Source: Desulfovibrio subterraneus
Lineage (GTDB): Bacteria > Desulfobacterota > Desulfovibrionia > Desulfovibrionales > Desulfovibrionaceae
Direction: 5' to 3'
DNA: 32,000 bases
Assembly: GCF_013340285.1 (NCBI RefSeq)
Contig: NZ_BLVO01000013.1
Coordinates: 13,574 to 45,573 of the forward strand
Shown here: piece after piece, positions 1 to 25,954 of the stretch
Layout of the letters: each line of letters opens with the position of its first letter
Position numbering within the stretch: position 1 is the first letter of the stretch
Translations under genes and position numbers: made by a program
Notes under the pieces: model-generated
Database searches by the model: none
What the model was told of the DNA's origin: nothing
The model's input: only the letters and a program-made list of their open reading frames with translations

Positions 1-2446
1 GTGGATAGAGCTTTTCTGCCCGCTGCCGTTGCCCCGCGAGGTTGAACAGGCGGGTGATGAGCAGGGCGCGGTCCTTGGGCAGCGGGTCCCTGTCGAGCAG
101 CGGGCCGAAGAATTCCAGCGCCTTCGCCGCCTTGCCGGTATTGCCGTATGCCTCGGCCAGCGCAAACCGGTCGTTCTCTTCAAGCGAGGCAAGGCCGTAT
201 GATTCATACATGTCGACGGAACGTTCGTACTTGCCAGTATACAGGGCGTTGCGGGCAACTTCCAGCATGGTGGGGCGGTCCTGCGGCCGGATGGCGAGGG
301 CCTGCTCGAAATAGCGCAGTGCCTTTGCCGTGTCGCCTGCGGCGGCCCATGCCGCGCCTGCACCGGATGCGGCCTCGAAGTCGTTGCGCGAGGCATCCGC
401 CAAGTGGGTCCACGTTTGTGCTGCAATGGTGTAGTGACCGGTGTCGAACGCCAGTCGTGCCACCTTGCGGCCGAGATTTGTGTCTGTCGTGTCAGCTCTG
501 TAAATCTGATACCAGAGGCGGAAGGCCTGTTCGACCAGTCCTGCCTCTTCTGCCATGGTGGCCCAGCGGCGCAGCAGAGCAACATCCTTGCCGGAGCGCA
601 TGAAGCGGGAAAGCAAAGACTCAAAGGCAGAGGCATCACCCTGTGCTGCAAGAGCCTGTGCGGAAGTCATGGCAAGGTCTTCATCATCCGGCCGCAGGGT
701 TCCTGCAATACGCAGGGCCTCCAGAAAACGGGCCGGATCGCCGGTAAAGGAGGCTATTTCCACCATGCGCATCACCTGCTCCCTGTCGCCCTTGGAGAGA
801 CGGGCCGCCTTGACGGCATAGGGCAGCGCCTTGACCGGATTCTCAACCCACAGCAGCACTTCGGCGGCTGTGTCCATGACTGTGCGCGAGGCAGGGTGCA
901 GTGTTGCCGCAAGCGTTGCAGCTTCTTCCACCGTGGCAGGGGTACCGGTGTAGCCTGCTGCTTCCAGCATGGTCAGGGTATCCGGCTCAAGCCGTGTGGC
1001 GGTGGCAATCTTCTTCAGCAGGCGGTAGGCTTCTGCCGGTTCGCTGACTGTGAGCAGGGCGTCTGCTCCGGCTCTCATGAAATCCACATTGTCCGGTTCG
1101 CGGCCAAGAGCAAGGCGCACGGCATCCACTACAAGGGGGGGCTGACCCGTGGCTGCCGCCACATCAAGCAGGCGGACAAGCTGTTCGTGATCGGGGGTAT
1201 TTTTGTCCGCTGCTTCGCGCAGCAGAACATAGGCTTTTTCGGGCTCGTTCAGCGCAAGGTGCAGTTCGACCTTTGTTTCCACTATATCCGGCCTGTCGGT
1301 GGGGAAGGGCAGAGCCTTTTCCAGAGCAAGGCGCATGGTGGATGGTTCACCCGAAAAAAGCGCGGCCGTGAGCATTCTGCCGAGAATTCTGAGCGTATCA
1401 ACGGCAGTGGCAAGCAGCCTGTCAAACAGGTTGAGCGCCTTGTCCACCTGATTGTTCGCCAGATACACCTCGGCGAGCTGTTCCGCATATTCGGTCTTGT
1501 CAGGCACGGCGTTGGTAAGGCTTTCCAGCGCATATTCCACAGTCTGCATGTCTTCGGCATCACGCGCGGCTCTGCTGAGGGCGACGAGAACCTCTTCGTT
1601 GCGGGGCACCTGACGGTCTACGTCTTTGAGGTAGGCAACGGCCTCGGGGAGCAGGTTGTTCCATTGCAGCACCTGCGCAAGGCGCAGACGGGCGGCCACA
1701 CCGCCCTGCAATGTATCAAGGCGCGTTGCAAACTGCCCGCCCTGCTGCACCATGCCGGTGCGCATGAAGTGTTCCAGACAGTAGGTGGTGTATTCTTCCG
1801 TGGAAACCGTTGCGCCGTCGCGCAGTTCTTCTTCGAGATTTTCGGAAACGACGAAGAGTTGCTGCATCAGCAGGTCGCGCAGGGGATCATAATCACCGGC
1901 AAGGCGCAATCCGGCAAGGCCGAGCAGTTCTTCACGCAGAACAGAGCGGATGGCCAGTGCGGTTTTCGTCGCGGTTGTACTTTCCAGCTGGATGAGGCGG
2001 GCCAGAGCAAGGCTCTCTTTATCCGGCATGCCGTAGTAGCGGTAATGCGAGACAAGTGTGCGCAGAATATCTGTACGGCCGGGGTCTGCCGCGAGTATTT
2101 CCTCATACACGGGCATGGCCAGAAGCGGCTGCATATTCCACTGATAATAGGTGGCCAGCGAGTTCAGCATGGCAACGTTGCGCGGCTTGAGCGGGCGCGC
2201 CTTCAGCAGGAAATCAATGGCCTGTTCCGGCTTGCCGAGCAGGTGATAGACCTCGGCAGCCGTTATGAGCAGGGGGTAATCTGAGCCGTCTTCAGCCACC
2301 GCCTTGTCTATGATGTCTTTGGAGCGCTGGATGTCGCCGCTCGCAAGATACAGCTCGGCCAGCTCCCGCCTGGTGGGGTAGACAAGCAACGTCAGGGTGA
2401 ATACCGCGACGAAGAAGCAGAGGACGTAGAACGGATTGATTCTCAC
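1..2446 (-). CDS. TPR-repeat protein with N-terminal membrane anchor (PelB-like exopolysaccharide export scaffold candidate); 3' end lies outside the window
   Basis: My own minus-strand translation is open from GTG at 2446 to the window edge. This ORF is missing from the track because no stop lies in the window. It begins VRINPFYVLCFFVAVFTLTLLVY (one hydrophobic helix) and is followed by repeated TPR-like A/L/Y-rich helices, for example LAELYLASGDIQRSKDIIDKAV and ALRYFEQALAIRPQD. The GTG start overlaps the upstream gene's stop as GTGA. Confidence 0.7.
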   Translation of the reverse strand, partial: MRINPFYVLCFFVAVFTLTLLVYPTRRELAELYLASGDIQRSKDIIDKAVAEDGSDYPLLITAAEVYHLLGKPEQAIDFLLKARPLKPRNVAMLNSLATYYQWNMQPLLAMPVYEEILAADPGRTDILRTLVSHYRYYGMPDKESLALARLIQLESTTATKTALAIRSVLREELLGLAGLRLAGDYDPLRDLLMQQLFVVSENLEEELRDGATVSTEEYTTYCLEHFMRTGMVQQGGQFATRLDTLQGGVAARLRLAQVLQWNNLLPEAVAYLKDVDRQVPRNEEVLVALSRAARDAEDMQTVEYALESLTNAVPDKTEYAEQLAEVYLANNQVDKALNLFDRLLATAVDTLRILGRMLTAALFSGEPSTMRLALEKALPFPTDRPDIVETKVELHLALNEPEKAYVLLREAADKNTPDHEQLVRLLDVAAATGQPPLVVDAVRLALGREPDNVDFMRAGADALLTVSEPAEAYRLLKKIATATRLEPDTLTMLEAAGYTGTPATVEEAATLAATLHPASRTVMDTAAEVLLWVENPVKALPYAVKAARLSKGDREQVMRMVEIASFTGDPARFLEALRIAGTLRPDDEDLAMTSAQALAAQGDASAFESLLSRFMRSGKDVALLRRWATMAEEAGLVEQAFRLWYQIYRADTTDTNLGRKVARLAFDTGHYTIAAQTWTHLADASRNDFEAASGAGAAWAAAGDTAKALRYFEQALAIRPQDRPTMLEVARNALYTGKYERSVDMYESYGLASLEENDRFALAEAYGNTGKAAKALEFFGPLLDRDPLPKDRALLITRLFNLAGQRQRAEKLYP

Positions 2447-4588: not shown

Positions 4589-5155
4589 TTAGCGGCCTTC
4601 CGTGGCGGAACTGAGCTCCTGCACGGCCTTTCGGCACAGGGTCTGCGTCAGCATGTTGAGCGAGGTGTCGCAGCCGAAGAAACAGCCGCTGCTTTCCGTC
4701 AAGGAAGCCGCCCAGATCACTTCACCGGTCTTTACATCCATCATGCGCAGGTTCACGCCCACAACAGGGCTCTGATCCAGCCCGCGCTTGTAGCGGAATT
4801 CACTGACTGAGCCGTAGAAGATGGTATCCACACCCAGAGTCTTTCCTGCACGACGGGCAACGGCCTTGTCCATCACGTAATCAAGGTCTTCTTCACCGCC
4901 CTTGAGTGATTCAATCATTGCCGTGGTTTCGAGGAATGCATATCCCTTGAGTCCATACAGTTCCGTGGAAAGAATGTCGCTGACAATGCGTCCCGCATTG
5001 GGGTGGGCAGTCAGGTTGACCAAAGGCAGCACGGCAGCGGTGCGCTCCCCGTCCGGCATGGCGGCGGAATTGAAGAAGTGTTGTTGCGAGGCTGAACAGG
5101 CCGTCAGCGAAATGAGAAGGCACGCGGTCATGATGCAGCGAAAGATGGTGTTCAC
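4589..5155 (-). CDS. Small outer-membrane-type lipoprotein, PelC-like
   Basis: 188-aa ORF with a GTG start preceded by GGGGGA. Lipobox L-T-A-C (MNTIFRCIMTACLLISLTAC). The core (AVLPLVNLT...GSVSEFRYKRGLDQSPVVGVNLRMMDVKTGEVIW) has the flavour of the PelC / TolB-N-like lipoprotein fold. The assignment is from memory of the family, not from a search. Confidence 0.62.
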   Translation of the reverse strand: MNTIFRCIMTACLLISLTACSASQQHFFNSAAMPDGERTAAVLPLVNLTAHPNAGRIVSDILSTELYGLKGYAFLETTAMIESLKGGEEDLDYVMDKAVARRAGKTLGVDTIFYGSVSEFRYKRGLDQSPVVGVNLRMMDVKTGEVIWAASLTESSGCFFGCDTSLNMLTQTLCRKAVQELSSATEGR

Positions 5156-5248
5156 GTATATCCCCCTGGTTGATTGCGTTAGATTTTCATAGCCTCAGGG
5201 CCGCTCTTTTGCAATAATAACAGTTATCAAAAACTCCAAGAGGGGCGC

Positions 5249-6271
5249 ATGGCTACCTACTTTATACACTATTTGAAATATCACGTAAGTAATATTTTGG
5301 CGTTCCACATATTTGTGCTCATTATGCTCGCGTTGTTCGGCTCGCTTGCCGGGTGTGGTCCGGTGGGCGATCAGGTGCCGGAGCGCAGGGCGGACTCCAC
5401 TGTCCGTGACGGAGCTGATTCCATGGAGGCGCCTGTGAGACATGTACGCATTGTACCGCATCCCCGGCGCTGGGCACTGTGGCTGCAGGGGGCGCAACCG
5501 GATGCGGTGGCTGCCTCGGCCACGGATCTTGTCGTGGTGGACTACTCGGCAGACGGCACGGATGCTGCCGCGTTTACCCCGCAGCAGGTTGCCCGCATGC
5601 AGCAGGGCGGTCGTAAGGTGCTGTGTTATTTTTCCATCGGCGAGGCAGAAAGTTATCGCTTTTACTGGGATGCGCAATGGAAGGAAGCGCCTCCTCCCTT
5701 CCTCGGACCCGAGAACCCCGACTGGCCCGAGAACTACAAGGTTATGTACTGGCACGAACAGTGGTGGGATCTGGTGCTTCGCCCCTACATGGACAAGATT
5801 CTGGCAGCCGGATTTGACGGCGTGTACCTTGATATCGTGGATGCATACTGGTTCTGGTATGAACAGGGCCGCGATCTGCAGCTGTGCGCTGACGACATGA
5901 TCCGGCTGGTTGCCCGCATCGCCAACTACATGCGGACCGCCGGAGGTGCCGATTTCATCATCACTCCCCAGAATGCCGAGGGCATTTTCAACGATGCTTC
6001 GGAAGCCTCTGTCGCACGGTATCTTGAGGTCATGGACATGATCGGGGTTGAATCGCTGCTTTTCAATGTCACTCCCGAAGACAGTGTCTACCGTACGACC
6101 ATGCTCAGAAAGGTCGCAGATGCGGGGAAGACCGTACTCAACATCGAGTATATTCCGCTGGAACGCATGGCAGAATACCGCAACGCATTGACCACGCTGC
6201 CGTTTGCGCCTGTACCCTATCGTGCCGAACCGGACAGGGCGCTGGATTCGCTTGCCCCGCAGACCCCCTGA
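5249..6271 (+). CDS. GH114 / PelA-hydrolase-like (TM1410-type TIM-barrel) glycoside hydrolase lipoprotein
   Basis: 340-aa ORF with lipobox L-A-G-C. Motifs WALWLQG, DLVVVDYS, VLCYFSIGEAESYRFYW and GFDGVYLDIVDAY are typical of the Glyco_hydro_114 / PelA N-terminal hydrolase family. AGAGGGG Shine-Dalgarno-like element. Confidence 0.8.
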   Translation: MATYFIHYLKYHVSNILAFHIFVLIMLALFGSLAGCGPVGDQVPERRADSTVRDGADSMEAPVRHVRIVPHPRRWALWLQGAQPDAVAASATDLVVVDYSADGTDAAAFTPQQVARMQQGGRKVLCYFSIGEAESYRFYWDAQWKEAPPPFLGPENPDWPENYKVMYWHEQWWDLVLRPYMDKILAAGFDGVYLDIVDAYWFWYEQGRDLQLCADDMIRLVARIANYMRTAGGADFIITPQNAEGIFNDASEASVARYLEVMDMIGVESLLFNVTPEDSVYRTTMLRKVADAGKTVLNIEYIPLERMAEYRNALTTLPFAPVPYRAEPDRALDSLAPQTP

Positions 6272-13165: not shown

Positions 13166-13848
13166 GCCCGGCCTCCGTTCGGATGGGTGTCGAGAAACTC
13201 GGCCAGCGGGCAGTCTTCGCAGCGCGGAGTGCCTTTTTTGCACCAGTCCTTGGCAACGCGCACGATCAGGGCATGGTATTCATTGAAAAGATGGGGGTCG
13301 TGCGGGAGTACATCCATAAAATAGTCGCGCAGGGTGTGATAGTCGGTATCTTCCGGTATCAGACCGTGGCGTGAGTATATGCGCAGCGTGTATGCATCCA
13401 CCACGAAGGTGGGCAGGCCCGCAGCATACAGGGCTATGGAGTCGGCAGTTTCCGGCCCGACGCCCTTGACCGAGAGCAGGGCCGTGCGCGCGGCATTCAC
13501 TTCCATGCTGCCGAGGTTGGCTATGTCTCCGTCGCAGGTGTCCTGCAGCCAGAGCAGGAGCTGCTTCAGCCGCTTTGCCTTCATATTGTAGTAGCCGGAA
13601 GGACGGATGAGCTCTGCCAGTTCTGCGTCCGGCAGGGCGAGCATGGCATCGGGGGCCAGATTGCCGGTGGCTTTGAGGTTGGCGATGGCGCGCTCCACGT
13701 TGCCCCAGTTGGTGTTCTGGGTAAGAATGGCACCCACGGCCACTTCGAAAGGCGTTTCGCCGGGCCACCAATGGCTCGGGCCCAGCCGGTCGAGCATGGA
13801 CTGGTACATGTTGAGGAGGAGGTCTGCACGGCTCATATGGGGTGGCAT
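13162..13848 (-). CDS. Endonuclease III-related HhH-GPD DNA glycosylase family protein
   Basis: Contains AILTQNTNWGNVERAI, the helix-hairpin-helix VKGVGPETADSIALYA, and a C-terminal Cys cluster CKKGTPRCEDC. I chose the start at the ATG at 13848 (MPPHMSRADLL...). The 110-aa N-terminal extension in the track ORF looks non-coding. Confidence 0.82.
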   Translation of the reverse strand: MPPHMSRADLLLNMYQSMLDRLGPSHWWPGETPFEVAVGAILTQNTNWGNVERAIANLKATGNLAPDAMLALPDAELAELIRPSGYYNMKAKRLKQLLLWLQDTCDGDIANLGSMEVNAARTALLSVKGVGPETADSIALYAAGLPTFVVDAYTLRIYSRHGLIPEDTDYHTLRDYFMDVLPHDPHLFNEYHALIVRVAKDWCKKGTPRCEDCPLAEFLDTHPNGGRA

Positions 13849-13999
13849 GCTATCTCTTCCGGACGCGTGTTGCAACAGGCGGGATATTTCCGCGCCGGGA
13901 AGGGAAGGGTTGCCTCCCGCCGGATACGGTATTACTTTACGGCCCACACAGCCTGTTTGTCCTGTTTCGGAACTTCTTTTCGGTGTTATTCCTGATTTT

Positions 14000-14040
14000 G
14001 GTGGCGGATGACGCCACCGGGTCATGCCACCGGTCCATGC
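14000..14040. promoter_or_regulatory. Inverted repeat plus 13-bp tandem direct repeat in the divergent intergenic region upstream of the hgc locus (candidate operator)
   Basis: GGTGGCG-gatga-CGCCACC is a 7-bp perfect inverted repeat at 14000-14018. It overlaps the tandem repeat CACCGGGTCATGC / CACCGGTCCATGC at 14015-14040. Confidence 0.3.
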
Positions 14041-14198
14041 AGTTCCCAAGCTGCCGGGCCATGCTGTCGGAAAACGCCATTCGGAATAGAGCAGCCGTAA
14101 GGATAGGCCGCGCTCAACGCCTTGTCCTGATGTCCGGATGATCGGGCAAATTACCAACGTAACCGCATGACAGGGCATCCGCCAATTCAGAGGACCAT

Positions 14199-14828
14199 GT
14201 GAAGGAACTAGAAACGTTTGTCTCCGTGACTTCTACCGGAGCTGCTACCGAAGCCTCCCCCGTAACATCCTCAGGCTGCGGCTGTTCGAGCCACGACGGA
14301 GGCAAGGGAGGCTGCGCCTGTGCAGAGGCTGCCGGTACGGAAAGCACCGCCTGCCTGTGTGCGGAGAATCCATCTGCCGCTGTTTCCGGTTGCGGCTGTT
14401 CATCGTCGGATGCTTCCCATGGTGGATCAGCCGGTGTGCAGCTCAAAGCCTATGATCCCTTTGCCGCACAGGGTGTCGCGCCGTTTTCCGGTAAAGAGGC
14501 GTCTGCGCCCAAGCCACTTGGCAGTACGCTGAAAATGGCGCCTGAAAAGTTCGCTCAAGAAAACTCCGCTCCAATAACGTCCGCTCCAATAACGTTCGCT
14601 CCGGAAAAGTCTGCTTCGGCTAAGTCCACTTCTGGCGAATCCGCCTGCTGCTGCACCCCGACGCAGAAGCAGGAACTGCGGCCTCTGGAACTTGCCGTCC
14701 CCGCTGCCTCCAAAGGCGGTTCCTGCTGCAGCGAGCAGCCTGCGGCATCCGCGTGCTGTTCCAGCCCCGATCCGTTCATGGCACAATTTTCGCGCGACAC
14801 CGCGTCTCCCGACGCGGAACCGTGCTGA
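14199..14828 (+). CDS. Cysteine-rich low-complexity protein (metallothionein-like CxC / CC(C) motifs), hypothetical
   Basis: 209 codons with a GTG start 4 nt after AGAGGA. It has 16 Cys: GCGC, GCAC, ACLC, GCGC, ACCC, SCC, ACC and a terminal C. No TM segment. It is on the same strand and in the same frame as hgcA, 63 nt upstream. Third-position GC is only moderate, so coding status is uncertain. Confidence 0.45.
   Translation: MKELETFVSVTSTGAATEASPVTSSGCGCSSHDGGKGGCACAEAAGTESTACLCAENPSAAVSGCGCSSSDASHGGSAGVQLKAYDPFAAQGVAPFSGKEASAPKPLGSTLKMAPEKFAQENSAPITSAPITFAPEKSASAKSTSGESACCCTPTQKQELRPLELAVPAASKGGSCCSEQPAASACCSSPDPFMAQFSRDTASPDAEPC
14565..14609 (+). repeat. 15-bp in-frame tandem repeat inside the Cys-rich ORF
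   Basis: TCCGCTCCAATAACG occurs twice (14565-14579 and 14580-14594), followed by a degenerate third unit TTCGCTCCGGAAAAG. This encodes SAPIT-SAPIT-FAPEK. Confidence 0.85.
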
Positions 14829-14840
14829 GGCCCTCCCCCG

Positions 14841-14858
14841 CGACCTGAGGCCAGGTCG
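14841..14858 (+). other. Hairpin between the Cys-rich ORF and hgcA (SECIS-like geometry, or a simple structural element)
   Basis: CGACCTG-AGGC-CAGGTCG: a 7-bp perfect stem with a 4-nt loop. The loop starts 19 nt after the in-frame TGA at 14826-14828. No U-tract follows. Confidence 0.5.
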
Positions 14859-14891
14859 TATGAGCGCGCGGGCTATGCCGTTTATCCCTGT

Positions 14892-15911
14892 GTGACGCAT
14901 TTTGTGGACACTCCCGCAGGTGACGTGCCGAGTATCACGCATGCGTGGGGGCTGCAGGACTGGCTGGGAACCGCGTTTGCGCGTCTGGGCGTGACCCGCA
15001 ACAACTACGCCGTTTCTCCCGGCCTGTATGCCATGGGTAATCCGGATGCGAACTCTCCGGTCATTGTCACCGCAAACTACAAACTCACCTTCGACGCCGT
15101 GCGTAGCGACCTTGCCGGACAGAATCTCTGGATGGTCGTGCTGGATACGCGTGGCATCAACGTGTGGTGCGCGGCAGGCAAGAATCTTTTTTCCACCGCC
15201 GAGGTCATCAAGCGACTGCAGCGGGTGCGGCTTGACCGCGTGGTGAAGCACCGTCGCATCATTCTGCCGCAGCTGGGCGCACCCGGTGTTTCCGCCAAGG
15301 AAGTGCGCCGCGCCACCGGTTTCAGCGTGGTATATGGCCCCGTGCTTTCAGCGGATCTTCCGGCATTTCTGGAATCCGGCATGCAGGCCACGACAGAAAT
15401 GCGTACTGTCCGTTTTCCGCTCAAGGAACGTGCGGTGCTCATTCCTGTGGAAATCATGCTGCTCTGGAAGACGCTGCTGCTTGCCTTTGCCGTCATGTTT
15501 GTCCTTTCGGGCATAGGGCCGGACATCTTCTCCTTCTCCGCTGCGGTGGGCAGGCTTGCGCCGTTTGCGTGGGCAACGCTCTTCGGTGTGCTGGCAGGGC
15601 AGGTTGCCGTGCCGGTTCTGCTGCCGGTGCTGCCTTTCAGGGCCTTTGCCGCCAACGGTGCCTTGGCCGGCGGGGTGGCGGTGCTGCCCATGCTGGCTTG
15701 CGCATGGCCGCTGGCAACATGGCTTGAGCTTGTGGTGCTCGCCGCATGGACGCCCTGTCTCGGATCGTTTCTGGCAATGAACTTCAGCGGGTCCACCCCC
15801 TATACCTCGCCCACGGGCGTGGAATGGGAGATGCGCCGCGCTGTTCCCCTGCAGATTCTTACCGTTGCCGTGTGCCTGTGCCTTTGGGTTGCGGCTGCCT
15901 TCATCGGATAG
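14892..15911 (+). CDS. hgcA: HgcA, corrinoid-binding mercury methyltransferase component with C-terminal 5-TM domain
   Basis: 339 codons. The N-terminal domain carries the diagnostic cap-helix motif GINVWCAAGK (N-V-W-C-A-A-G-K at 15159-15182; the Cys is residue 93 counted from the GTG at 14892), plus VTANYKLTFD and LPQLGAPGVSA. The C-terminal half has about five hydrophobic helices, for example LIPVEIMLLWKTLLLAFAVMFVL and LQILTVAVCLCLWVAAAFIG. Confidence 0.93.
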   Translation: MTHFVDTPAGDVPSITHAWGLQDWLGTAFARLGVTRNNYAVSPGLYAMGNPDANSPVIVTANYKLTFDAVRSDLAGQNLWMVVLDTRGINVWCAAGKNLFSTAEVIKRLQRVRLDRVVKHRRIILPQLGAPGVSAKEVRRATGFSVVYGPVLSADLPAFLESGMQATTEMRTVRFPLKERAVLIPVEIMLLWKTLLLAFAVMFVLSGIGPDIFSFSAAVGRLAPFAWATLFGVLAGQVAVPVLLPVLPFRAFAANGALAGGVAVLPMLACAWPLATWLELVVLAAWTPCLGSFLAMNFSGSTPYTSPTGVEWEMRRAVPLQILTVAVCLCLWVAAAFIG

Positions 15912-15920
15912 GGGGGGCGT

Positions 15921-16217
15921 ATGAAAGATTTTCGCTATATCGATGGTGTGGCCAGCATTGCACTGGAAGCCAAAACCTGTGTGGGCTGCGGCGTGTGCGT
16001 GCAGGTATGTCCGCATCAGGTGTTTACCGTACAAAAGGGCAAGGCCGTGTTTGCAGACCGCAATGCCTGCATCGAGTGTGGCGCATGCGCCAAAAACTGC
16101 CCGGTGGACGCCATACTCGTTACCCCCGGTGTGGGCTGTGCTTCGCTCATGATCAAGCGCTGGCTGCATGAGAAGGGCATTCCCGTCCGCCTTGGCGGCG
16201 GCACCGGCTGCTGCTAG
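15921..16217 (+). CDS. hgcB: HgcB, 2x[4Fe-4S] ferredoxin partner of HgcA
   Basis: 98 aa, starting 9 nt after the hgcA stop and preceded by a G7 Shine-Dalgarno-like run. Two CX2CX2CX3CP motifs (CVGCGVCVQVCP, CIECGACAKNCP), an extra Cys at residue 73 (GVGCAS), and a C-terminal vicinal pair GTGCC. Confidence 0.93.
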   Translation: MKDFRYIDGVASIALEAKTCVGCGVCVQVCPHQVFTVQKGKAVFADRNACIECGACAKNCPVDAILVTPGVGCASLMIKRWLHEKGIPVRLGGGTGCC

Positions 16218-16306
16218 GGGAGGCTTACCGGTCTCCGGCTTCAGGTCGATATGGCAGGCGAGAATAGTGCGGCAAGAATAACCAACATAATTTTATTGGT
16301 ATGATT

Positions 16307-16334
16307 GAAGCGCTGTGTTTGCACACAGCGCTTC
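16307..16334 (+). terminator. Stem-loop downstream of hgcB (probable terminator; weak U-tract)
   Basis: 12-bp perfect stem GAAGCGCTGTGT / ACACAGCGCTTC with loop TTGC, followed by TGGTTAAT. Confidence 0.5.
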
Positions 16335-16459
16335 TGGTTAATGACAAAGCTGTGTTCTCAGTAAAACCACATCTCCGTTAAGCCGGAGCTGAAATTCAAA
16401 AACGGATTTTCATCGCTTATACGAGGTGCAGGAACGTTAGGTTCCTGCCCGGCGGAGCC

Positions 16460-16505
16460 AAAAAAAACCAGAAATGACCTCGTCAGCAGTCTGGTTTTTT
16501 CTTTT
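16460..16505. terminator. Bidirectional Rho-independent terminator (closes hrpB on the minus strand; has a U-tract on the plus strand as well)
   Basis: AAAAAAAACCAGA ... TCTGGTTTTTTCTTTT. The CCAGA/TCTGG stem is extended by A/T pairing, with runs of A upstream and T downstream. Confidence 0.65.
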
Positions 16506-16542
16506 ACATCCCCGCAGGATGTTCCTTCAAGCCATTCCTGAA

Positions 16543-19149
16543 TTACCCCTGCTGCATGCGTTTCGTTACATGGCGGGTGGGCCGGGCCGTGGTCGGGTCT
16601 TCGGGCCACGGGTGTCTGGGGTAGCGGCCACGCATTTCCGCCCGCACGGCAGGGTAGCCGTTTTTCCAGAAGGAGACGAGGTCGCGGGTGACCTGCAGCG
16701 GTCTTCCGGCTGGTGAGAGCAGGTGTACCAGCAGCGGGAACCGGCCACCTGCGATGGCAGGTGTTTCCTTTGCACCGAACATTTCCTGCAGTTTGACCGG
16801 CAGGGTCGGGCCGCCCTGTTCCGTATAGTCCAGCCGGATGCGGGAACCGGAAGGTACCTCAAGATGGGTGGGAGCATCCCTGTCCAGCCGTTGCTGCATG
16901 GGCCAGTCGAGCAGTGCGGTGATGGCGGCGCACAGGTCCAGAGACTTGAACTGGCTGCGGCGGGTTATGCCGTTGAGGAATGGGCCGAGCCACTGCGGGA
17001 GCGTGTCGAGCAGGGCGGTATCGGAAAGATCGGGCCAGACGGATTCCCACGCGCTGGTTGTTTCGTCCTTCGTCTCGCAGCCTGCCGCATCCACGGCGCG
17101 CAGGAATTGTATTCTGGCTCGCAGCGCTGTGGCTTCCGCTGTCCACGGGAGGCAGTGCAGCCCGATGGAACGTATCCCTTCCACCACGACATCGGTCACA
17201 TCCGCGCTGCCTGCGTCCGCCAGCGGGGCATCCGCTAATATGAGCGCGCCAAGACGCTTCTGCGAACGGGCCGCCACGGCTTCGGTCCTGCTGTCCCACA
17301 CCACGAACGAGCCTTGCGTTACGCGGTCTGCAAACAATTCTTCCAGCAGGTCGCTGCCAACGGGAGCCGCCCGCCATATGCGCGCCCGTGCGGCGTTGCC
17401 ATCCAGCTCTCCCACGGCGAGAAAGGATTCACGTGCAAGGGGATCTTCCGGAGGCAGGTAGGCTGTCTTGCCACCGGAAAGGCGGAAGGTGCCGTTGCCG
17501 CGCTGCTGGGCGATGCGGTCGGGGTAGGCAAGGGCCAGGCACTCTCCGGCCGCTTCGGGATCGGCCCGTCTGAATGCGGCGTCGGGGATGGCGTGGCGGA
17601 CTGTGCGCATGATGTGTTGCACCGTGTCGGCCATGCGGTTGCGGCCTCCGCTCATGGCGCGTTCCGGCGTGCCGGATTGCGACTGATCGGATTGCGGCTG
17701 CGTTAGGCCAGCGCATTCCGCCATGCGATGACGCATGTCCGCTCCCGTCTGTCTGCTGTCGCGGTCGGAAAGAAGCGCGGCAACAACACAGGCCGTGCCG
17801 CCTTCGCCTGAGCGTGCCGCCGTGAGAACCATGTGTCCGAGGCGCGGATGCAGGGGCAGAGAAAGCAGCTCAGAGCCATGGGGTGTTATGCGCAGGGCCT
17901 CGTCCAGTGCGCCAAGGTCGCGGAGCAGGGTGCAGGCCTGCTGGTAATTTCCTTGCGGAGGCGGCGTGAGCCACGGCAGGGCAAGTGCTCCGTCATATCC
18001 GGCAATGCCCCATGCGGCCAGCTCAAGCACAAGTGCTGCAAGGTCGGCTTCGGCGATTTCCGGTGCGGCAAAGGAGCGCATGGAATGTTCTTCTGCCACA
18101 TCCCACAGACGGTAGCAGGTGCCGGGTTCCAGACGTCCGGCACGGCCCTGCCGCTGGGTTGCGGCGGCGAGCGATACCCGTTCCGTCACCAGCCGCGTCA
18201 TGCCGCTGCCCGGATCGAAACGGGGCAGACGGGAAAGTCCGCAATCCACGACCACGCGCACGCCCTCGATGGTCAGGGACGTTTCCGCAATACTGGTTGC
18301 AAGCACCACCTTGCGTGTGCCTGCCGGTGCCGGTGTAATGGCGGCGTCCTGCTCCGATGCGCTGAGGTCTCCGTAGAACGGATGGACGCTCACATTCTCC
18401 GGCAGGGTGGTGCTTTCGAGCATGGCGGCGATGCGGCGTATTTCTCCGGCACCGGGGAGAAATACGAGAACGGAGCCCGTGTCATTGGCAAGGGCGTGCC
18501 GGATGACGGAAGCGGCGTGGGCATCATCAAGATGTACGCCGGAAGACTGCATGTGCCGACGGGGTGGCGGAACGTGGCGCACTTCTACTGGGTAAGATCG
18601 TCCCTCGCTGGAAATGACGGGGCAGGGTGTGCCGTCCCTGCCCAGCAGGGAGGCAACGGGGGCGCAGTCCAACGTGGCGGACATGACAAGCAGGCGCAGG
18701 TTGTCGCGCAGGGCGGCCTGCGATTCCGTACACAGGGCAAGGCCGAGGTCGGCGTGGATGCTGCGCTCATGAAATTCGTCGAAGATGATGATGCCGTACC
18801 CGGAAAGTTCGGGGTCTGCCTGCAGCAGGCGCGTGAGTACGCCTTCCGTCACCACTTCTATGCGGGTGGCTGCGGAAACACGGGTTTCGTGGCGAATGCG
18901 GTAGCCAACGGTTCTGCCCACCTCTTCCCCCAGAGCGCGGGCCATGAATCCGGCTGCCGCGCGGGCGGCAATGCGGCGGGGTTCAAGCACGAGGACACGC
19001 CGTTCTCCCAGCCAGCCCGCACTGAGCAGGGCAAGGGGAACGCGGGTTGTCTTACCTGCGCCGGGCGGGGCATGGAGCAGGGCATTCGGCGTATGCTCAA
19101 GGCTCGTGAGCAGATCGGGCAGTATGGTGTCTATGGGGAGTATATGCAT
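16543..19149 (-). CDS. hrpB: ATP-dependent RNA helicase HrpB (DEAH-box)
   Basis: 868 aa. Walker A APPGAGKTT, DEFHERS (DEAH-type), SATL, TSIAETSLTIEGV and QRQGRAGR, plus the HrpB-type C-terminal domain. Confidence 0.93.
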   Translation of the reverse strand: MHILPIDTILPDLLTSLEHTPNALLHAPPGAGKTTRVPLALLSAGWLGERRVLVLEPRRIAARAAAGFMARALGEEVGRTVGYRIRHETRVSAATRIEVVTEGVLTRLLQADPELSGYGIIIFDEFHERSIHADLGLALCTESQAALRDNLRLLVMSATLDCAPVASLLGRDGTPCPVISSEGRSYPVEVRHVPPPRRHMQSSGVHLDDAHAASVIRHALANDTGSVLVFLPGAGEIRRIAAMLESTTLPENVSVHPFYGDLSASEQDAAITPAPAGTRKVVLATSIAETSLTIEGVRVVVDCGLSRLPRFDPGSGMTRLVTERVSLAAATQRQGRAGRLEPGTCYRLWDVAEEHSMRSFAAPEIAEADLAALVLELAAWGIAGYDGALALPWLTPPPQGNYQQACTLLRDLGALDEALRITPHGSELLSLPLHPRLGHMVLTAARSGEGGTACVVAALLSDRDSRQTGADMRHRMAECAGLTQPQSDQSQSGTPERAMSGGRNRMADTVQHIMRTVRHAIPDAAFRRADPEAAGECLALAYPDRIAQQRGNGTFRLSGGKTAYLPPEDPLARESFLAVGELDGNAARARIWRAAPVGSDLLEELFADRVTQGSFVVWDSRTEAVAARSQKRLGALILADAPLADAGSADVTDVVVEGIRSIGLHCLPWTAEATALRARIQFLRAVDAAGCETKDETTSAWESVWPDLSDTALLDTLPQWLGPFLNGITRRSQFKSLDLCAAITALLDWPMQQRLDRDAPTHLEVPSGSRIRLDYTEQGGPTLPVKLQEMFGAKETPAIAGGRFPLLVHLLSPAGRPLQVTRDLVSFWKNGYPAVRAEMRGRYPRHPWPEDPTTARPTRHVTKRMQQG

Positions 19150-22064: not shown

Positions 22065-22352
22065 ATTGCATTAATTCGAATGGATATGAAAATAAGTGCA
22101 AAATTAAAAACCAAATTGATGTTTTCCATTAAAACTTTGATGTAAAGTTGACGAAAATGGTCTGTGTGCGCTAGAAAAACTGCAGCTTGACCACACGGGA
22201 TTTGATCAGGTCTGCGCAGAATGCATGAGCAGGCAGAACCTACGTGTGTCTGCTCATTGTCTATGTTTCCGTCGCTGTGGTATTATGCCGGACCGTTCCG
22301 GTGCGGCCGCGGAAAAGAACGACGCCACGCTTTCTTTGAAGGAGACGAGAGT

Positions 22353-24152
22353 ATGCAGCTGGATGTGAACAACATTAAAACGTTGGACCCCAAGGATCAT
22401 CCTGACTGGGAAGTCGCGCAGGACGCCGAATCCCGCATGAAGACCATATATAAGCTTGGTGACGAGATGGGCCTTGAGGAGCGCGAGCTGCTGCCCTATG
22501 GTCACTACATGGGCAAAATTGATTACCGCAGCGTGCTCAAGCGCCTTGCGGACAAGCCTAACGGCAAGTTCGTGAACGTAACCGCCATCAACCCCACACC
22601 GCTGGGCGAAGGCAAGTCCACCACCACCATCGGCCTGGTGCAGGGCCTCGGCCGCAGGGGCAAAAAGGCTTCTGCCGCCATCCGCCAGCCCTCCGGCGGC
22701 CCCACCATGGGGGTGAAAGGCTCCGCCGCAGGCGGCGGCCGCTCGCAGTGCATTCCGCTCACGCCGTTTTCTCTCGGCTTCACCGGCGACATTAACGCCA
22801 TCATGAACGCCCACAACCTTGCCATGACCGCGCTTACCGCGCGCATGCAGCATGAGCGCAACTATTCCGACGAAAAGCTGCTCAAGCTTTCCGGCATGCC
22901 GCGCCTTGACGTGGACCCCACCCGCATCTCCATGGGCTGGGTCATAGACTACTGTGCGCAGGCGCTGCGTAACATCGTCATCGGCATGGACGGCGTGAAC
23001 GGTGCGCAGGACGGCTACATGATGCGCTCCAAGTTCGATATCGCCGTATCGTCCGAAGTCATGGCCATTCTTGCCGTTTCCAAGGACCTGAAGGACCTGC
23101 GCGAGCGCATGGGCAAGATCATCATGTGCTACGACAAGTTCGGCAAGCCGCTCACCACCAAGGATTTCGAGGTGGATGGCGCCATGACCGCATGGCTTGT
23201 GGATGCCGTGAACCCCAACCTTATCCAGACGCTCGAAGGCCAGCCCGTTATCGTGCATGCCGGTCCCTTCGCCAACATCGCCATCGGCCAGAGCTCCATC
23301 ATCGCCGATCAGGTGGGTCTCAAACTTTCCGACTATCATGTCACGGAATCCGGCTTCGGTGCCGACATCGGCTACGAGAAGTTCTGGAACCTCAAGTGCC
23401 ACTACAGCGGCCTTACGCCCGATGCCTCGGTTGTCGTGGCCACGGTGCGCGCGCTCAAGTGTCATGGCGGTGCGCCCATGCCCGTCCCCGGTAAGAAGCT
23501 GCCGGAAGCCTATACCACCGAGAACGTGGAATGGGTGGAAAAGGGCTGCGCCAACCTGCTGCACCATGTGAACATCGTGAAGAAATCCGGTGTATCCCCC
23601 GTGGTGTGCATCAACGCCTTTGTCACGGACACCCCGAACGAGATCAGAAAGATCCGCGAACTGTGCGAGGCCGCCGGTGCCCGCGTGGCTGTTTCCAAGC
23701 ACTGGGAATACGGCGGCGAAGGAGCGCTTGAGCTGGCAGATGCCGTTATGGACGCCTGCAACGACAAGACTACCTTCACCCCGCTGTATGACTGGTCCAT
23801 GCCTATGCGTCAGCGTATCGAAAAGGTGGCAACGGAAGTCTACGGCGCAGACGGCGTGGATTATTCATTTGAAGCCAAGGCTCGTCTCGAATCCATCGAG
23901 AACGATACCGAGCTTTCCAAGCTTGGCCTGTGCATGGTCAAGACGCACCTCTCGCTTTCCGACGATCCCACCCTCAAGGGTGTACCCAAGGGCTGGAGGC
24001 TCAAAGTGCGCGATGTGCTCACCTTCGGCGGGGCCGGATTCGTGGTGCCTGTGGCCGGTTCCATATCCCTCATGCCGGGAACGGGGTCAAACCCCTCGTT
24101 CAGGCGCATAGACGTGGATACGGATACGGGCCGCGTGGAAGGATTGTTCTAA
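22353..24152 (+). CDS. fhs: Formate--tetrahydrofolate ligase
   Basis: 599 aa from the ATG at 22353 (GAAGGAGA Shine-Dalgarno). Contains the P-loop [24 protein letters not shown] and [11 protein letters not shown]. The track ORF start at 22221 is an upstream artefact. Confidence 0.97.
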
Positions 24153-24154
24153 GA

Positions 24155-24186
24155 GAACGCCGGGGACAGCAATGTCTCCGGCGTTT
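24155..24186 (+). terminator. Stem-loop after fhs (probable terminator)
   Basis: GAACGCCGGGGACA-GCAA-TGTCTCCGGCGTTT (one G-U pair), followed by CTGCTG. The U-tract is weak. Confidence 0.45.
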
Positions 24187-24365
24187 CTGCTGTGCAGAGC
24201 AGGCCGGTGTGCCTCCTCACCCGCCGGCCTGCCTCATGCATTCTGTCGTACCTTCACAGCCCGTTCACAGACTCTTCTCGGTCCCTTGCGGGTGCGCATC
24301 CCGTGCGGATGGTGTACCCTTGTCTCGGGCCGAAAGGGCTGTACCTTGGCTGAGCAAATTGCGGG

Positions 24366-24394
24366 TTGACAGGGTGTCGCGTCTGGGCAATACC
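24366..24394 (+). promoter_or_regulatory. Possible sigma70 promoter for folD
   Basis: Consensus -35 TTGACA at 24366-24371, a 17-nt spacer, then a weak -10 AATACC. About 45 nt upstream of the folD ATG. Confidence 0.3.
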
Positions 24395-24439
24395 GTGCGC
24401 GGCACGACATCATACATATTTACGTCACGGGAGCCTGCC

Positions 24440-25354
24440 ATGAGCGCGGAAATTATCAGCGGCACCGACATGCGTACCGCCATTCTGGAAGAACTTGCCT
24501 CTGAAGTTGAGGCAATGAAGGCCAAGCACGGCAAGGTTCCGGGGCTGGTCACCATTCTGGTGGGTGAAAACCCCGCCTCGGTCAGCTATGTCACCCTGAA
24601 GGTGAAAACAGCCCTCAAGCTGGGCTTTCACGAAATTCAGGACAGCCAGCCCGAGTCCATTTCAGAAGAGGAGCTTCTCGCCCTCATCGAACGGTACAAT
24701 CAGGACCCGGATATTCATGGCATTCTGGTGCAGCTGCCCCTGCCCAAGCACATCAACGAAGAAAAGGTCATCTACGCCATCAATCCTGACAAGGACGTGG
24801 ACGGCTTTCACCCCGTCAACCTCGGCCGCATGGTCATAGGCGGCGACAACGGCGGGTTCCTTCCCTGCACGCCTGCGGGCATTCAGGAAATGATCGTGCG
24901 TTCCGGTACCGAGACCAGCGGTGCGGAAGTGGTTGTTGTGGGCCGCTCCAACATCGTGGGCAAGCCCATTTCCGTCATGATGGGCCAGAAGGGCCGTGGC
25001 GCGAACAGCACCGTCACCATGGTGCACACCCGCACCCATGACATTGCCGAACACTGCAAGCGTGCCGATATTCTTATCGTTGCCGCCGGTGTTCCCGGTC
25101 TGGTGAAGCCCGACTGGATCAAGCCCGGTGCCACCGTTATCGACGTGGGCGTGAACCGCGTGGGTACCAGCACCACGGGCAAGGCCATTCTTTCCGGCGA
25201 TGTGGATTTTGCCGAGGCCTGCAAGGTTGCCGGCAAGATCACGCCTGTTCCCGGCGGCGTGGGTCCCATGACCATTGCCATGCTGATGAAGAACACCGTA
25301 AAGTCGGCCTGGATGCATCTTGAACGCACAATGGCCGACACCCTGCCCAGATAG
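24440..25354 (+). CDS. folD: Bifunctional 5,10-methylene-tetrahydrofolate dehydrogenase / 5,10-methenyl-tetrahydrofolate cyclohydrolase
   Basis: 304 aa from the ATG at 24440. Contains PGLVTILVGENPASVSYV, GILVQLPLP, VVVGRSNIVGKP and PVPGGVGPMTIAMLM. The track ORF (from 23930) overlaps the end of fhs and is too long. Confidence 0.96.
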   Translation: MSAEIISGTDMRTAILEELASEVEAMKAKHGKVPGLVTILVGENPASVSYVTLKVKTALKLGFHEIQDSQPESISEEELLALIERYNQDPDIHGILVQLPLPKHINEEKVIYAINPDKDVDGFHPVNLGRMVIGGDNGGFLPCTPAGIQEMIVRSGTETSGAEVVVVGRSNIVGKPISVMMGQKGRGANSTVTMVHTRTHDIAEHCKRADILIVAAGVPGLVKPDWIKPGATVIDVGVNRVGTSTTGKAILSGDVDFAEACKVAGKITPVPGGVGPMTIAMLMKNTVKSAWMHLERTMADTLPR

Positions 25355-25364
25355 TATGTTTCAG

Positions 25365-25403
25365 CGCCGCCCCGCAGACGCGGGGCGGCGTATTCCTTTC
25401 TTT
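25365..25403 (+). terminator. Rho-independent terminator or attenuator between folD and the FDH genes
   Basis: CGCCGCCCCGC-AGAC-GCGGGGCGGCG: an 11-bp perfect stem followed by TATTCCTTTCTTT. Confidence 0.6.
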
Positions 25404-25415
25404 ACCGGAGAGCCG

Positions 25416-25946: not shown

Positions 25947-25954
25947 GGGGCTGC

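What the first reader, a model, noticed from the sequence alone, without database searches (positions are those of the whole stretch)
14199..14828. Metallothionein-like Cys-rich ORF directly upstream of hgcA
A 209-codon ORF with a GTG start and an AGAGGA Shine-Dalgarno lies on the same strand, 63 nt upstream of hgcA, with no U-tract terminator between them.

It has 16 Cys (about 8 percent of residues). They are organised as four CxC pairs in the N-terminal third (GCGC, GCAC, ACLC, GCGC), three CC/CCC clusters in the C-terminal third (ACCC, SCC, ACC), and a terminal Cys. An Ala/Ser/Pro-rich linker separates the two groups. There is no TM helix or signal peptide.

CxC and vicinal-Cys arrays are classic soft-metal (Hg, Cd, Cu, Zn) ligands. 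This points to a cytoplasmic thiol-rich Hg(II) buffer or delivery protein co-transcribed with the methylation machinery. I know of no described role for such a protein, so the function is my inference.

Coding status is not certain, because third-position GC is lower than in neighbouring genes.
Basis: inference. Interest (0 to 1): 0.72.

Follow-up and report, generated by a model that had tools for sequence, protein, structure and literature searches.

The report
Cys-rich N-terminal arm of selenoprotein HgcA
The "separate" cysteine-rich gene upstream of the mercury-methylating gene hgcA is most likely the first 209 residues of HgcA itself, joined to it through a UGA codon read as selenocysteine; selenocysteine in HgcA is already published, but an arm this long and this rich in cysteine has not been described.

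Summary
There is a 209-codon GTG ORF at 14199-14828 with 16 Cys, four CxC pairs, CCC/CC/CC clusters and a terminal Cys.

The ORF is not a separate gene. It is in the same frame as hgcA, and a single TGA (14826-14828) separates them. That TGA aligns with the second Cys of the N-terminal "PCCGP" motif found in Cys-type HgcA homologues. The 63 nt "spacer" encodes the conserved HgcA segment GPPPRPEARSYERAGY and has no start codon of its own. An 8-bp hairpin begins 11 nt after the UGA. The same window holds a classical selenocysteine formate dehydrogenase gene (TGA 29143).

Haft & Gwadz (bioRxiv 2022) already reported that most HgcA proteins are selenoproteins with a PCUGP motif in a short N-terminal extension, giving 363-400 aa in total.

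What differs here is size. The arm is 209 aa and the protein 570 aa. The arm is under purifying selection (dN/dS 0.14-0.27) and predicted to be largely disordered. It is confined to a small Desulfovibrio subterraneus / D. mangrovi clade, and some relatives carry a second C-UGA-hairpin module.

Hg(II) capture and hand-off is an inferred function, not a shown one. Verdict: a new variant of a known kind, of moderate interest.

The parts
14189..14194 (+). Shine-Dalgarno-like AGAGGA, 4 nt before the GTG start
   Evidence: Read directly. The TTCAGAGG-n4/5-GTGAAG arrangement is kept in the close relatives and in D. mangrovi L015.
14199..15911 (+). Proposed true hgcA coding sequence: 570 codons with selenocysteine at codon 210, plus the stop
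   Evidence: One frame with a single in-frame TGA. The read-through product was assembled. The core matches NF040863 HgcA at 412 bits against a cutoff of 275.
14199..14825 (+). N-terminal Cys-rich arm (residues 1-209). This is the ORF of the finding.
   Evidence: dN/dS 0.14-0.27, third-position bias and in-frame indels. No family match. AlphaFold2 mean pLDDT 42.
14268..14489 (+). Conserved small domain (residues 24-97) with four CxC pairs (27/29, 39/41, 52/54, 65/67), then the LK.YDPF.AQG.APF motif
   Evidence: Homologous to residues 1-117 of D. mangrovi P0124, E=3e-24, in an exhaustive search. All eight Cys are invariant. Weak strand predictions fall at each CxC.
14565..14602 (+). 15-nt tandem repeat (TCCGCTCCAATAACG, 2.5 copies) encoding SAPIT repeats in the linker
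   Evidence: Tandem Repeats Finder. The stretch varies in length in frame: L001 lacks one 15-nt unit and L003 lacks 45 nt that span the array.
14646..14759 (+). Vicinal-Cys clusters: CCC (150-152), CC (176-177) and CC (186-187)
   Evidence: CC clusters sit at the corresponding places in D. mangrovi.
14820..14834 (+). PCUGP motif: CCG TGC TGA GGC CCT, with TGA 14826-14828 read as selenocysteine
   Evidence: The TGA aligns with the second Cys of PCCGP in Cys-type HgcA homologues. The motif is identical to the published PCUGP. The TGA is kept in every relative examined.
14840..14859 (+). SECIS-like hairpin GCGACCUG-AGGC-CAGGUCGU, starting 11 nt after the UGA
   Evidence: Found in the centroid fold. 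P is about 0.004 for an 8-bp hairpin at +10..13 from a given TGA. Over 11 C-UGA sites, 94% of cells pair, 5 of 8 pairs show compensatory changes, and no shuffle of 500 reaches that. The geometry matches the fdhA hairpin in the same window.
14829..14891 (+). The former "intergenic" 63 nt: conserved HgcA N-terminal segment GPPPRPEARSYERAGYAVYPC
   Evidence: Aligns with the GP..P....E(R/K).GY....FV segment of full-length Cys-type HgcA. The only 3 variable sites among relatives are synonymous third positions. No in-frame start codon lies inside it.
14892..15911 (+). HgcA core as usually annotated: corrinoid-binding domain with cap-helix NVWCAAGK (Cys324 of the full protein), then the C-terminal membrane domain
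   Evidence: NF040863 at 414.7 bits and PF03599. Motif and hydrophobic segments from about residue 411 to 570.
15921..16217 (+). hgcB: 2x[4Fe-4S] ferredoxin with Cys73 and a C-terminal Cys-Cys
   Evidence: NF040864 at 118.9 bits against a cutoff of 99. Sequence ends ...GGGTGCC.

Best explanation
The ORF at 14199-14828 is the 5' part of hgcA, not a separate gene.

**Proposed sequence of events**
1. Translation starts at GTG 14199.
2. It runs through 209 codons of a Cys-rich, mostly disordered arm.
3. At UGA 14826, selenocysteine is inserted. This would be directed by SelB binding to the hairpin at 14840-14859.
4. Translation continues into the conserved ERAGY segment, the corrinoid-binding domain and the membrane domain.
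5. The product is a 570-residue selenoprotein HgcA carrying the PCUGP motif.

**What is shown here**
- The shared frame, and the homology of the UGA to Cys in other HgcA proteins.
- Coding-type conservation on both sides of the UGA.
- A conserved, covarying hairpin after the UGA.
- Use of selenocysteine by this organism.

**What is inferred**
The arm's eight CxC cysteines, its CCC/CC/CC clusters and the terminal Cys-Sec pair may act as a tethered thiolate/selenolate relay. The relay would strip Hg(II) from cytosolic thiol complexes and pass it to the Cys-Sec site beside the methyl-cobalamin centre. It may work together with the C-terminal Cys-Cys of HgcB. This resembles the way the N-terminal NmerA domain of mercuric reductase feeds Hg(II) to that enzyme's Cys pairs (my own knowledge of MerA).

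My confidence in the gene structure is about 0.85. My confidence in the Hg hand-off function is about 0.4. The single confidence value given for this explanation (0.8) refers to the gene structure.
For: **Frame and motif**
- One frame, with a single TGA.
- The TGA aligns with the second Cys of the conserved PCCGP motif in about 10 full-length Cys-type HgcA homologues. The next 21 codons align with their GP..P....E(R/K).GY....FV segment.
- The motif equals the PCUGP reported as invariant in 20 Sec-type HgcA proteins. HgcA is also listed as a CU selenoprotein in a 2026 review.

**Conservation across the UGA**
- The 63 nt after the TGA have no ATG/GTG/TTG. They show 0 nonsynonymous and 3 synonymous third-position changes among relatives.
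- The TGA and the frame are kept in every independent assembly checked: L001, L003, L004, L005, L018, L019, L010, L011, L013/L014 and L015.

**Hairpin**
- It starts 11 nt after the UGA. The chance probability is about 0.004.
- The same geometry with a different sequence appears at second C-UGA sites in relatives and in a Pseudodesulfovibrio locus. Across these sites 94% of cells pair, 5 of 8 pairs have compensatory changes, no shuffle of 500 reaches this, and slid controls pair at 43% or less.

**Selenocysteine use**
- fdhA at 27985-30789 has TGA 29143 at the catalytic Sec/Cys position, followed by a hairpin 10 nt downstream.

**Translation of the arm**
- dN/dS 0.14-0.27 and in-frame indels.
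- 32 synonymous codon swaps among the 60 residues conserved against D. mangrovi.
- The GTG-AAG start and its SD are kept in the D. mangrovi locus; L010 and L011 also open with an in-frame GTG-AAG.
- The internal Met194 is Ile in D. mangrovi. Neither ATG 14778 nor GTG 14892 is preceded by an SD.
Against: - There is no direct evidence of Sec insertion. There is no proteomics, and selA, selB, selC and selD are not in the window.
- Within the close clade the hairpin is invariant. Covariation comes only from paralogous or distant sites, and the structure tested was derived from these same sequences.
- The loop is AGGC, not the E. coli GGUC (E. coli loop from my own knowledge). The fold energy of the 76-nt stretch is unremarkable (z = 0.5). 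Rfam reports nothing.
- RefSeq still annotates the D. subterraneus HgcA as 328 aa without the extension.
- GC3 of the arm is low (0.59) and AlphaFold2 confidence is poor (pLDDT 42). Both fit low-complexity sequence of little function.
- ND132 HgcAB, His-tagged directly on the annotated N-terminus and made in E. coli, still showed Hg-methylation activity in cell lysates (PMC11588087). That the construct lacked the CU extension is my inference from the tag position. If so, the N-terminal extension is accessory at most.
- Hg binding by the arm is pure inference.
Confidence: 0.8

Rival explanations
1. Separate gene. UGA 14826 is a true stop. A free 209-aa metallothionein-like protein is made, and HgcA starts independently at GTG 14892.
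For: ORF callers and public annotation split the two. In D. mangrovi the N-terminal part is a "hypothetical protein", and D. subterraneus HgcA is annotated at 328-339 aa. A form of HgcA with a tag on the old start is catalytically active.
Against: - The 63 nt after the stop encode the conserved HgcA N-terminus and evolve only synonymously.
- No SD precedes GTG 14892.
- Gene callers choose different downstream starts in different relatives.
- The stop is always TGA, always follows Cys, and is always followed by the hairpin.
- There is no metallothionein family match, and Cys content is only 7.7%.
Confidence: 0.07
2. Short Sec-HgcA. Translation of HgcA starts at the internal ATG 14778 (Met194), giving a typical 377-aa CU-type HgcA. 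The upstream 579 nt would be a leader or a separately translated ORF.
For: MAQFSRDTASPDAEPCU resembles the normal N-termini of other HgcA proteins, e.g. P0009 MMPLYKATDTDQPCCG. A 377-aa gene model exists for D. mangrovi. Published lengths are 363-400 aa.
Against: - The upstream part is under purifying selection in this same frame, with no stop.
- The equivalent of Met194 is Ile in D. mangrovi.
- No SD precedes ATG 14778.
- A conserved SD plus GTG-AAG start sits at the 5' end.
Confidence: 0.08
3. The arm is translated as part of HgcA but has no specific function. It would be an expanding and contracting low-complexity N-terminal tail, tolerated because it is disordered.
For: - pLDDT 42.
- A 15-nt repeat stretch that varies in length among relatives.
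- Extension length varies from about 60 to about 250 aa among close relatives.
- The arm exists only in a narrow clade.
- Low GC3.
- The core is probably active without any extension.
Against: - dN/dS is 0.14-0.27.
- All 8 CxC cysteines and all CC clusters are invariant between D. subterraneus-like sequences and D. mangrovi, despite about 47% divergence and many synonymous changes.
- Extra Cys residues recur near the CC/CU motif in unrelated HgcA lineages: L017 has 8 Cys in about 55 aa, P0008 is another case, and the paper notes "packing with extra Cys".
Confidence: 0.2
4. Redox or cofactor role instead of Hg hand-off. The Cys-Sec pair and the Cys arrays would form a selenenylsulfide/disulfide relay or bind an Fe-S or Zn centre. 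This would serve reductive activation of the corrinoid, or protect it.
For: - CU and CxxU motifs in other selenoproteins are usually redox-active (general knowledge).
- HgcA needs Co(I) regeneration.
- By my recollection, the related CFeSP large subunit carries an N-terminal [4Fe-4S] domain.
Against: - HgcB already supplies two [4Fe-4S] clusters.
- CxC and CC spacings are not standard Fe-S motifs.
- CU motifs recur specifically in Hg-related proteins: MerT-type, MerB-like SaoL, and HgcA.
Confidence: 0.15

Closest known systems
Selenoprotein form of HgcA with an N-terminal PCUGP extension (Haft & Gwadz, bioRxiv 10.1101/2022.07.06.499078; NCBIfam NF040863)
   Same: - An in-frame UGA directly after Cys, in PCUGP.
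- The UGA corresponds to Cys in the minority CC-type homologues.
- The conserved E(R/K).GY....FV segment follows.
- The HgcA core and hgcB lie downstream.
- The gene is truncated at the UGA in databases.
   Different: - The segment before Sec is 209 aa, against roughly 13-45 aa.
- Total length is 570 aa, against the reported 363-400.
- It adds 15 more Cys in a conserved 4xCxC domain plus CCC/CC/CC clusters.
- Relatives (L010, L013, L015) carry two C-UGA-hairpin modules, whereas the paper describes a single UGA.
NmerA, the N-terminal metallochaperone-like domain of mercuric reductase MerA (from my own knowledge)
   Same: A Cys-bearing N-terminal module tethered by a flexible linker to a Hg-processing catalytic core. 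It is thought to acquire Hg(II) from cellular thiols and hand it to a vicinal Cys pair of the enzyme.
   Different: NmerA is a folded HMA (ferredoxin-like) domain with GMTCxxC. The arm here has no HMA match, is predicted disordered, uses CxC/CC/CU motifs, and its Hg binding is untested. This is an analogy only, not membership.
Bacterial and eukaryotic metallothioneins (e.g. SmtA/BmtA; Pfam metallothionein families)
   Same: CxC and CC motifs, very few aromatic residues (7 Phe, 1 Tyr, no Trp), low-complexity sequence likely to be unfolded without metal, and soft-metal ligands.
   Different: No Pfam, NCBIfam or PDB match. Cys is 7.7% over 209 aa, well below metallothioneins, which are far smaller and much richer in Cys (my own knowledge). 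It is not a stand-alone protein if the UGA is read through.
Other CU/CC motifs of Hg-related proteins: HgcB C-terminal CC, SaoL/SaoB/SaoC, CU-type MerT
   Same: A vicinal Cys-Sec or Cys-Cys pair on a flexible terminus of a protein that handles mercury or organometallic substrates.
   Different: Those are single pairs on short tails. Here the pair closes a 209-aa array of further Cys motifs.
Selenocysteine formate dehydrogenase FdhA in the same window (27985-30789, UGA 29143)
   Same: An in-frame UGA aligned to catalytic Sec/Cys, with an 8-bp hairpin 10-11 nt downstream. It serves as an internal positive control for Sec decoding and hairpin geometry.
   Different: An unrelated protein. Its loop is GGUCU, against AGGC in hgcA.

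Membership tests
HgcA (mercury methylation corrinoid protein, NF040863) | Full-length match to the HgcA equivalog model above its curated cutoff | tested here: met
   412-415 bits against a cutoff of 275, model positions 1-324 of 325. PF03599 CdhD match.
HgcA (mercury methylation corrinoid protein, NF040863) | Cap-helix motif N(V/I)WCA(A/G)GK with the cobalt-ligating Cys | tested here: met
   NVWCAAGK at residues 321-328 of the read-through protein, Cys324. Invariant in the alignment.
HgcA (mercury methylation corrinoid protein, NF040863) | C-terminal multi-helix membrane domain | tested here: met
   Overlapping hydrophobic segments from about residue 411 to 570. Aligned end to end with HgcA homologues.
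HgcA (mercury methylation corrinoid protein, NF040863) | Adjacent hgcB ferredoxin with a C-terminal CC | tested here: met
   15921-16217, NF040864 at 118.9 bits against a cutoff of 99. Ends in CC.
Selenoprotein (CU-type) HgcA | In-frame UGA inside PCUGP, aligned with Cys in CC-type homologues, with homology continuing on both sides | tested here: met
   EPC-UGA-GPP aligned to PCCGP. Published motif. Synonymous-only change after the UGA.
Selenoprotein (CU-type) HgcA | SECIS stem-loop shortly downstream of the UGA | tested here: met
   8-bp hairpin 11 nt after the UGA. P about 0.004. Covariation across 11 sites. SelB binding was not tested.
Selenoprotein (CU-type) HgcA | The organism has the Sec-insertion machinery (selA, selB, selC, selD) | tested here: inconclusive
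   The genes are not in the 32-kb window, and no tRNA-Sec was found. Indirect support comes from a canonical Sec-type fdhA with a hairpin in the same window.
Selenoprotein (CU-type) HgcA | Selenium actually incorporated into the protein | not testable with these tools
   Needs 75Se labelling or mass spectrometry.
Selenoprotein (CU-type) HgcA | Corrected length in the described range (363-400 aa, single UGA) | tested here: not met
   570 aa from the first possible start. Relatives have two UGAs. This is the sense in which it is a variant.
Metallothionein | Match to a metallothionein family model | tested here: not met
   No Pfam family at E<=1, no NCBIfam, no PDB relative.
Metallothionein | Small size and very high Cys content as a free protein | tested here: not met
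   209 aa, 7.7% Cys. Most likely not a free protein.
HMA / NmerA-type metallochaperone domain | HMA fold with a CxxC metal-binding loop | tested here: not met
   No HMA match. No CxxC motif in the arm. Predicted disordered.

The most novel reading that the evidence does not exclude
The arm may be a selenium-gated, two-product device.

- **With selenium available:** the ribosome reads UGA 14826 as Sec and makes a 570-aa HgcA. Its tethered poly-thiolate/selenolate "antenna" harvests Hg(II) and feeds the methylation site.
- **When Sec insertion fails:** the same mRNA releases the free 209-aa Cys-rich peptide. That peptide buffers Hg(II) like a metallothionein, and no methylase is made.

Selenium status would then switch the cell between sequestering mercury and methylating it.

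A related point comes from relatives. The C-UGA-hairpin unit is duplicated there, which suggests it behaves as a self-contained cassette that can multiply within the arm.
Probability: 0.12. Interest if true: 0.8.

Novelty: new variant of a known kind. Interest (0 to 1): 0.5.

Why it matters
How Hg(II) reaches the HgcA corrinoid centre is still open. The PNAS 2024 study leaves the second half-reaction unresolved. Most biochemistry appears to use HgcA from the old start, without the Sec-bearing N-terminus.

A lineage that has expanded this N-terminus into a 209-aa array of conserved CxC, CC and CU motifs is a natural argument that the extension is a metal-handling arm. It also offers a convenient test object: arm deletion, U-to-C or U-to-S mutants, and Hg-binding stoichiometry.

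There is a practical side too. hgcA in D. subterraneus-like genomes is annotated truncated at 328-339 aa, and its 5' part is either left unannotated or called a separate hypothetical protein. Surveys and expression constructs built on those gene models miss 40% of the protein.

Tried and rejected
**Searches that found nothing**
- Rfam on the whole window gave no family, so no curated SECIS model applies.
- ARAGORN found no tRNA, so no tRNA-Sec is in the window.
- Pfam, NCBIfam and PDB sequence searches of the arm gave nothing beyond one chance hit at E=0.19.
- The sigma-70 promoter scan of 13700-16600 found none.
- Literature searches for CP104208, and for D. subterraneus with hgcA, found nothing.

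**Searches that found little**
- The word-indexed homology search for the arm found only three close relatives.
- The exhaustive search of 1.84 billion cluster representatives added only D. mangrovi P0124 and a spurious repeat protein, P0125.
- The metagenome scan added two near-identical loci.
- The genome scan with HgcA returned only one close genome, plus four distant loci that are CC-type or lack the motif.

**Structure prediction**
- Prediction of the full read-through protein could not be run.
- The arm alone gave a low-confidence model, so no fold search was attempted.

**Explanations rejected**
- *Sequencing error or pseudogene:* the TGA is conserved in all independent assemblies.
- *Internal start at Met194:* rejected, see the rival explanations.
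- *Overlapping minus-strand ORFs (14114-14446, 14427-15251) as real genes:* the conservation pattern follows the plus-strand frame.

**Correction**
My early notes gave the internal Met as M193 at 14775. The correct values are Met194 and ATG 14778-14780.
Full report
**1.

The ORF at 14199-14828 (+) starts with GTG, 4 nt after AGAGGA, and has 209 codons. It has 16 Cys (7.7%): four CxC pairs at residues 27-67, then CCC (150-152), CC (176-177), CC (186-187) and a terminal Cys209. The rest is rich in Ala, Ser, Gly and Pro, with no hydrophobic segment. GC3 is 0.59, against 0.65-0.75 in the neighbours. No terminator-like site lies on the + strand between 13700 and 16600.

The downstream genes are hgcA and hgcB. 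hgcA scores 414.7 bits on NF040863 (cutoff 275). hgcB scores 118.9 bits on NF040864 (cutoff 99).

**2. The ORF is translated**

Three close relatives of the ORF (98, 88 and 81% identity in the search) turned up in metagenome assemblies and one MAG. Each lies in the same place, upstream of hgcAB. Two more loci came from a metagenome scan.

- Pairwise dN/dS is 0.14-0.27, with strong third-position bias.
- The indels are 15 and 45 nt, so the frame is preserved. They fall in a stretch holding a 15-nt tandem repeat.
- An exhaustive profile search of 1.84 billion representatives found one further homologue, P0124 (E=3e-24), from Desulfovibrio mangrovi.
- Against D. mangrovi, 60 of 109 aligned codons keep the residue, including all eight CxC cysteines. 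Of those 60, 32 use a different synonymous codon.

**3. It is not a separate gene**

The ORF and hgcA are in the same frame, and the only stop between them is TGA 14826-14828, directly after Cys209.

I aligned the read-through sequence with HgcA homologues. Many full-length proteins of about 370 aa begin with ...PCCGP..GP.....E(R/K).GY....FV..F..TPAG. The window reads ...DAEPC[TGA]GPPPRPEARSYERAGYAVYPCVTHFVDTPAG, so the TGA sits exactly on the second Cys.

The 63 nt once taken as intergenic contain no ATG, GTG or TTG. Among relatives they vary at only three sites, all synonymous third positions. No SD precedes GTG 14892. Gene callers choose different downstream starts in different relatives.

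**4. A SECIS-like hairpin follows the UGA**

An 8-bp hairpin with a 4-nt loop, GCGACCUG-AGGC-CAGGUCGU, starts 11 nt after the UGA. Hairpins of this quality occur 30 times on the + strand of the window. The chance of one starting 10-13 nt after a given TGA is therefore about 0.004.

Relatives with 70-75% HgcA identity (L010, L013, L015) carry a second upstream C-UGA-(A)PP site. Each such site has a hairpin at the same distance but partly or wholly different in sequence. In L015 it is AGGGUCCG-GUUU-CGGAUCCU. A Pseudodesulfovibrio-type locus has GACCCC...GGGGUC.

Across 11 sites, 94% of cells pair and 5 of 8 pairs show compensatory changes. No shuffle of 500 reaches these values, and slid registers pair at 43% or less. 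Two caveats apply. Seven rows are nearly identical, and the structure tested was taken from these sequences.

**5. The organism uses selenocysteine**

About 13 kb downstream, a formate dehydrogenase alpha gene (27985-30789) is split by ORF callers at TGA 29143. The context is NNVDHCARL-U-HSPTVAGL. The TGA aligns with the catalytic Sec/Cys of solved formate dehydrogenases, and an 8-bp hairpin follows 10 nt downstream. selA, selB, selC and selD are not in the window, and I could not check them genome-wide.

**6. This kind is already published**

Haft & Gwadz (bioRxiv 10.1101/2022.07.06.499078) reported that most HgcA proteins are selenoproteins. They describe an invariant PCUGP motif in a previously missed N-terminal extension, corrected lengths of 363-400 aa, and a single UGA. 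A 2026 review lists HgcA as a CU selenoprotein.

The window's EPCUGPP fits exactly. The central point, that the "stop" is Sec and the "spacer" is HgcA, is therefore a rediscovery rather than a novelty.

**7. What is unusual here**

The segment before Sec is 209 aa, which gives a 570-aa protein. Among the 120 best HgcA hits, none exceeds 375 aa.

The arm has three parts:
- a conserved 4xCxC domain, residues about 24-97;
- a variable linker bearing the repeat;
- a CCC/CC/CC region leading into PCUGP.

The SD and GTG-AAG start are shared with D. mangrovi. The equivalent of the internal Met194 is Ile there, which argues against a short form starting at ATG 14778.

Within this Desulfovibrionaceae clade all loci share synteny: S41 peptidase, M23 peptidase and HhH-GPD on one side, then hgcA and hgcB. 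Yet the arm varies from about 60 aa (L011) to about 250 aa with two Sec codons (L015).

Public annotation gives D. subterraneus HgcA as 328-339 aa. It labels the D. mangrovi N-terminal part a separate hypothetical protein. The window is D. subterraneus-like, since its HgcA falls in the same 90% cluster.

**8. Function**

AlphaFold2 on the arm alone gives pLDDT 42, with only weak strands at the four CxC motifs. That fits a disordered segment, or one that folds on metal binding. No family or solved structure matches it.

Extra Cys residues around the CC/CU motif recur in unrelated HgcA lineages (L017, P0008, and the paper). CU motifs are otherwise concentrated in mercury and organometal proteins.

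I therefore favour a tethered Hg(II) capture and hand-off arm, analogous to NmerA in MerA (my own knowledge). This is inference.

The PNAS 2024 work made ND132 HgcAB in E. coli with a His tag placed directly on the annotated N-terminus, and the enzyme still showed Hg-methylation activity in cell lysates. I infer that this construct lacked the CU extension. If so, the arm is accessory and not part of the minimal catalytic unit.

**9. Verdict**

Their interpretation as an independent metallothionein-like gene is not supported, but the idea of a thiol-rich metal-handling element serving HgcA survives in a tighter, covalently linked form. I rate it a new variant of a known kind and of moderate interest.

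Noticed in passing
window 27985-30789 (+), TGA at 29143-29145: A formate dehydrogenase alpha gene with a NuoG-like N-terminus and molybdopterin domains is split by ORF calling at an in-frame TGA in the motif CARL-U-HSPTVAGL. An 8-bp hairpin (CGGUGGCC-GGUCU-GGCCGCCG) follows 10 nt downstream. This is a classical Sec site and a second selenoprotein gene in the window.
   Followed up: yes
window 22221-30789 (+): A C1/formate gene cluster lies about 6 kb downstream of hgcAB. It comprises formate-tetrahydrofolate ligase (22221-24152), FolD (domains within 23930-25354), a Nuo51/NuoF-like flavoprotein (25955-27841) and the Sec-FdhA. A possible link to methyl-group supply was not explored.
   Followed up: partly
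L010 2677 and 2947; L013 2704 and 2893; L015 4391 and 4730: Relatives with 70-75% HgcA identity have two in-frame C-UGA sites in the HgcA N-terminal arm, each with its own hairpin 11-13 nt downstream. In L010 and L013 the upstream module (PC/GC-U-APPSRPE(F/V)RS) looks like a duplicate of the main PC-U-GPPPRPEARS module. The published description mentions only a single UGA.
   Followed up: partly
window 14565-14602: A 15-nt tandem repeat (TCCGCTCCAATAACG, 2.5 copies) encodes SAPIT repeats. This stretch differs in length between close relatives, always in frame: L001 lacks one 15-nt unit and L003 lacks 45 nt spanning the array.
   Followed up: yes
window 14160-14198, and the same stretch in L001, L003, L004: The 40 nt leader just upstream of the GTG (TAACCGCATGACAGGGCATCCGCCAATTCAGAGGACCAT) is nearly invariant among the close relatives, although the sequence further upstream diverges. 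In L003 that upstream part is a short TGATCGGGCCGTA repeat. It may be a regulatory or 5'-UTR element. No sigma-70 promoter or Rfam family was found.
   Followed up: no
L016 1013-1327; L017 1-370: In Pseudodesulfovibrio-type and Deferrisomatales hgcAB loci an ArsR/HTH_5-family regulator gene lies just upstream of hgcA. In the window's clade that position is taken by a divergently transcribed HhH-GPD DNA glycosylase gene, and no regulator is adjacent.
   Followed up: no
window 404-2284 (+), 2443-4557 (-), 4589-5155 (-), 5195-5755 (-): Four long ORFs (626, 704, 188 and 186 aa) have no Pfam match at E<=1e-5. I did not check whether they are real genes of unknown function or spurious frames in GC-rich DNA.
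   Followed up: no
public annotation of relatives: RefSeq names WP_269890921.1 (D. subterraneus) as HgcA at 328 aa, without the Sec extension. WP_265826924.1 (D. mangrovi, 130 aa) is annotated as a separate hypothetical protein, although it ends at a C-UGA site inside the hgcA frame.
   Followed up: partly
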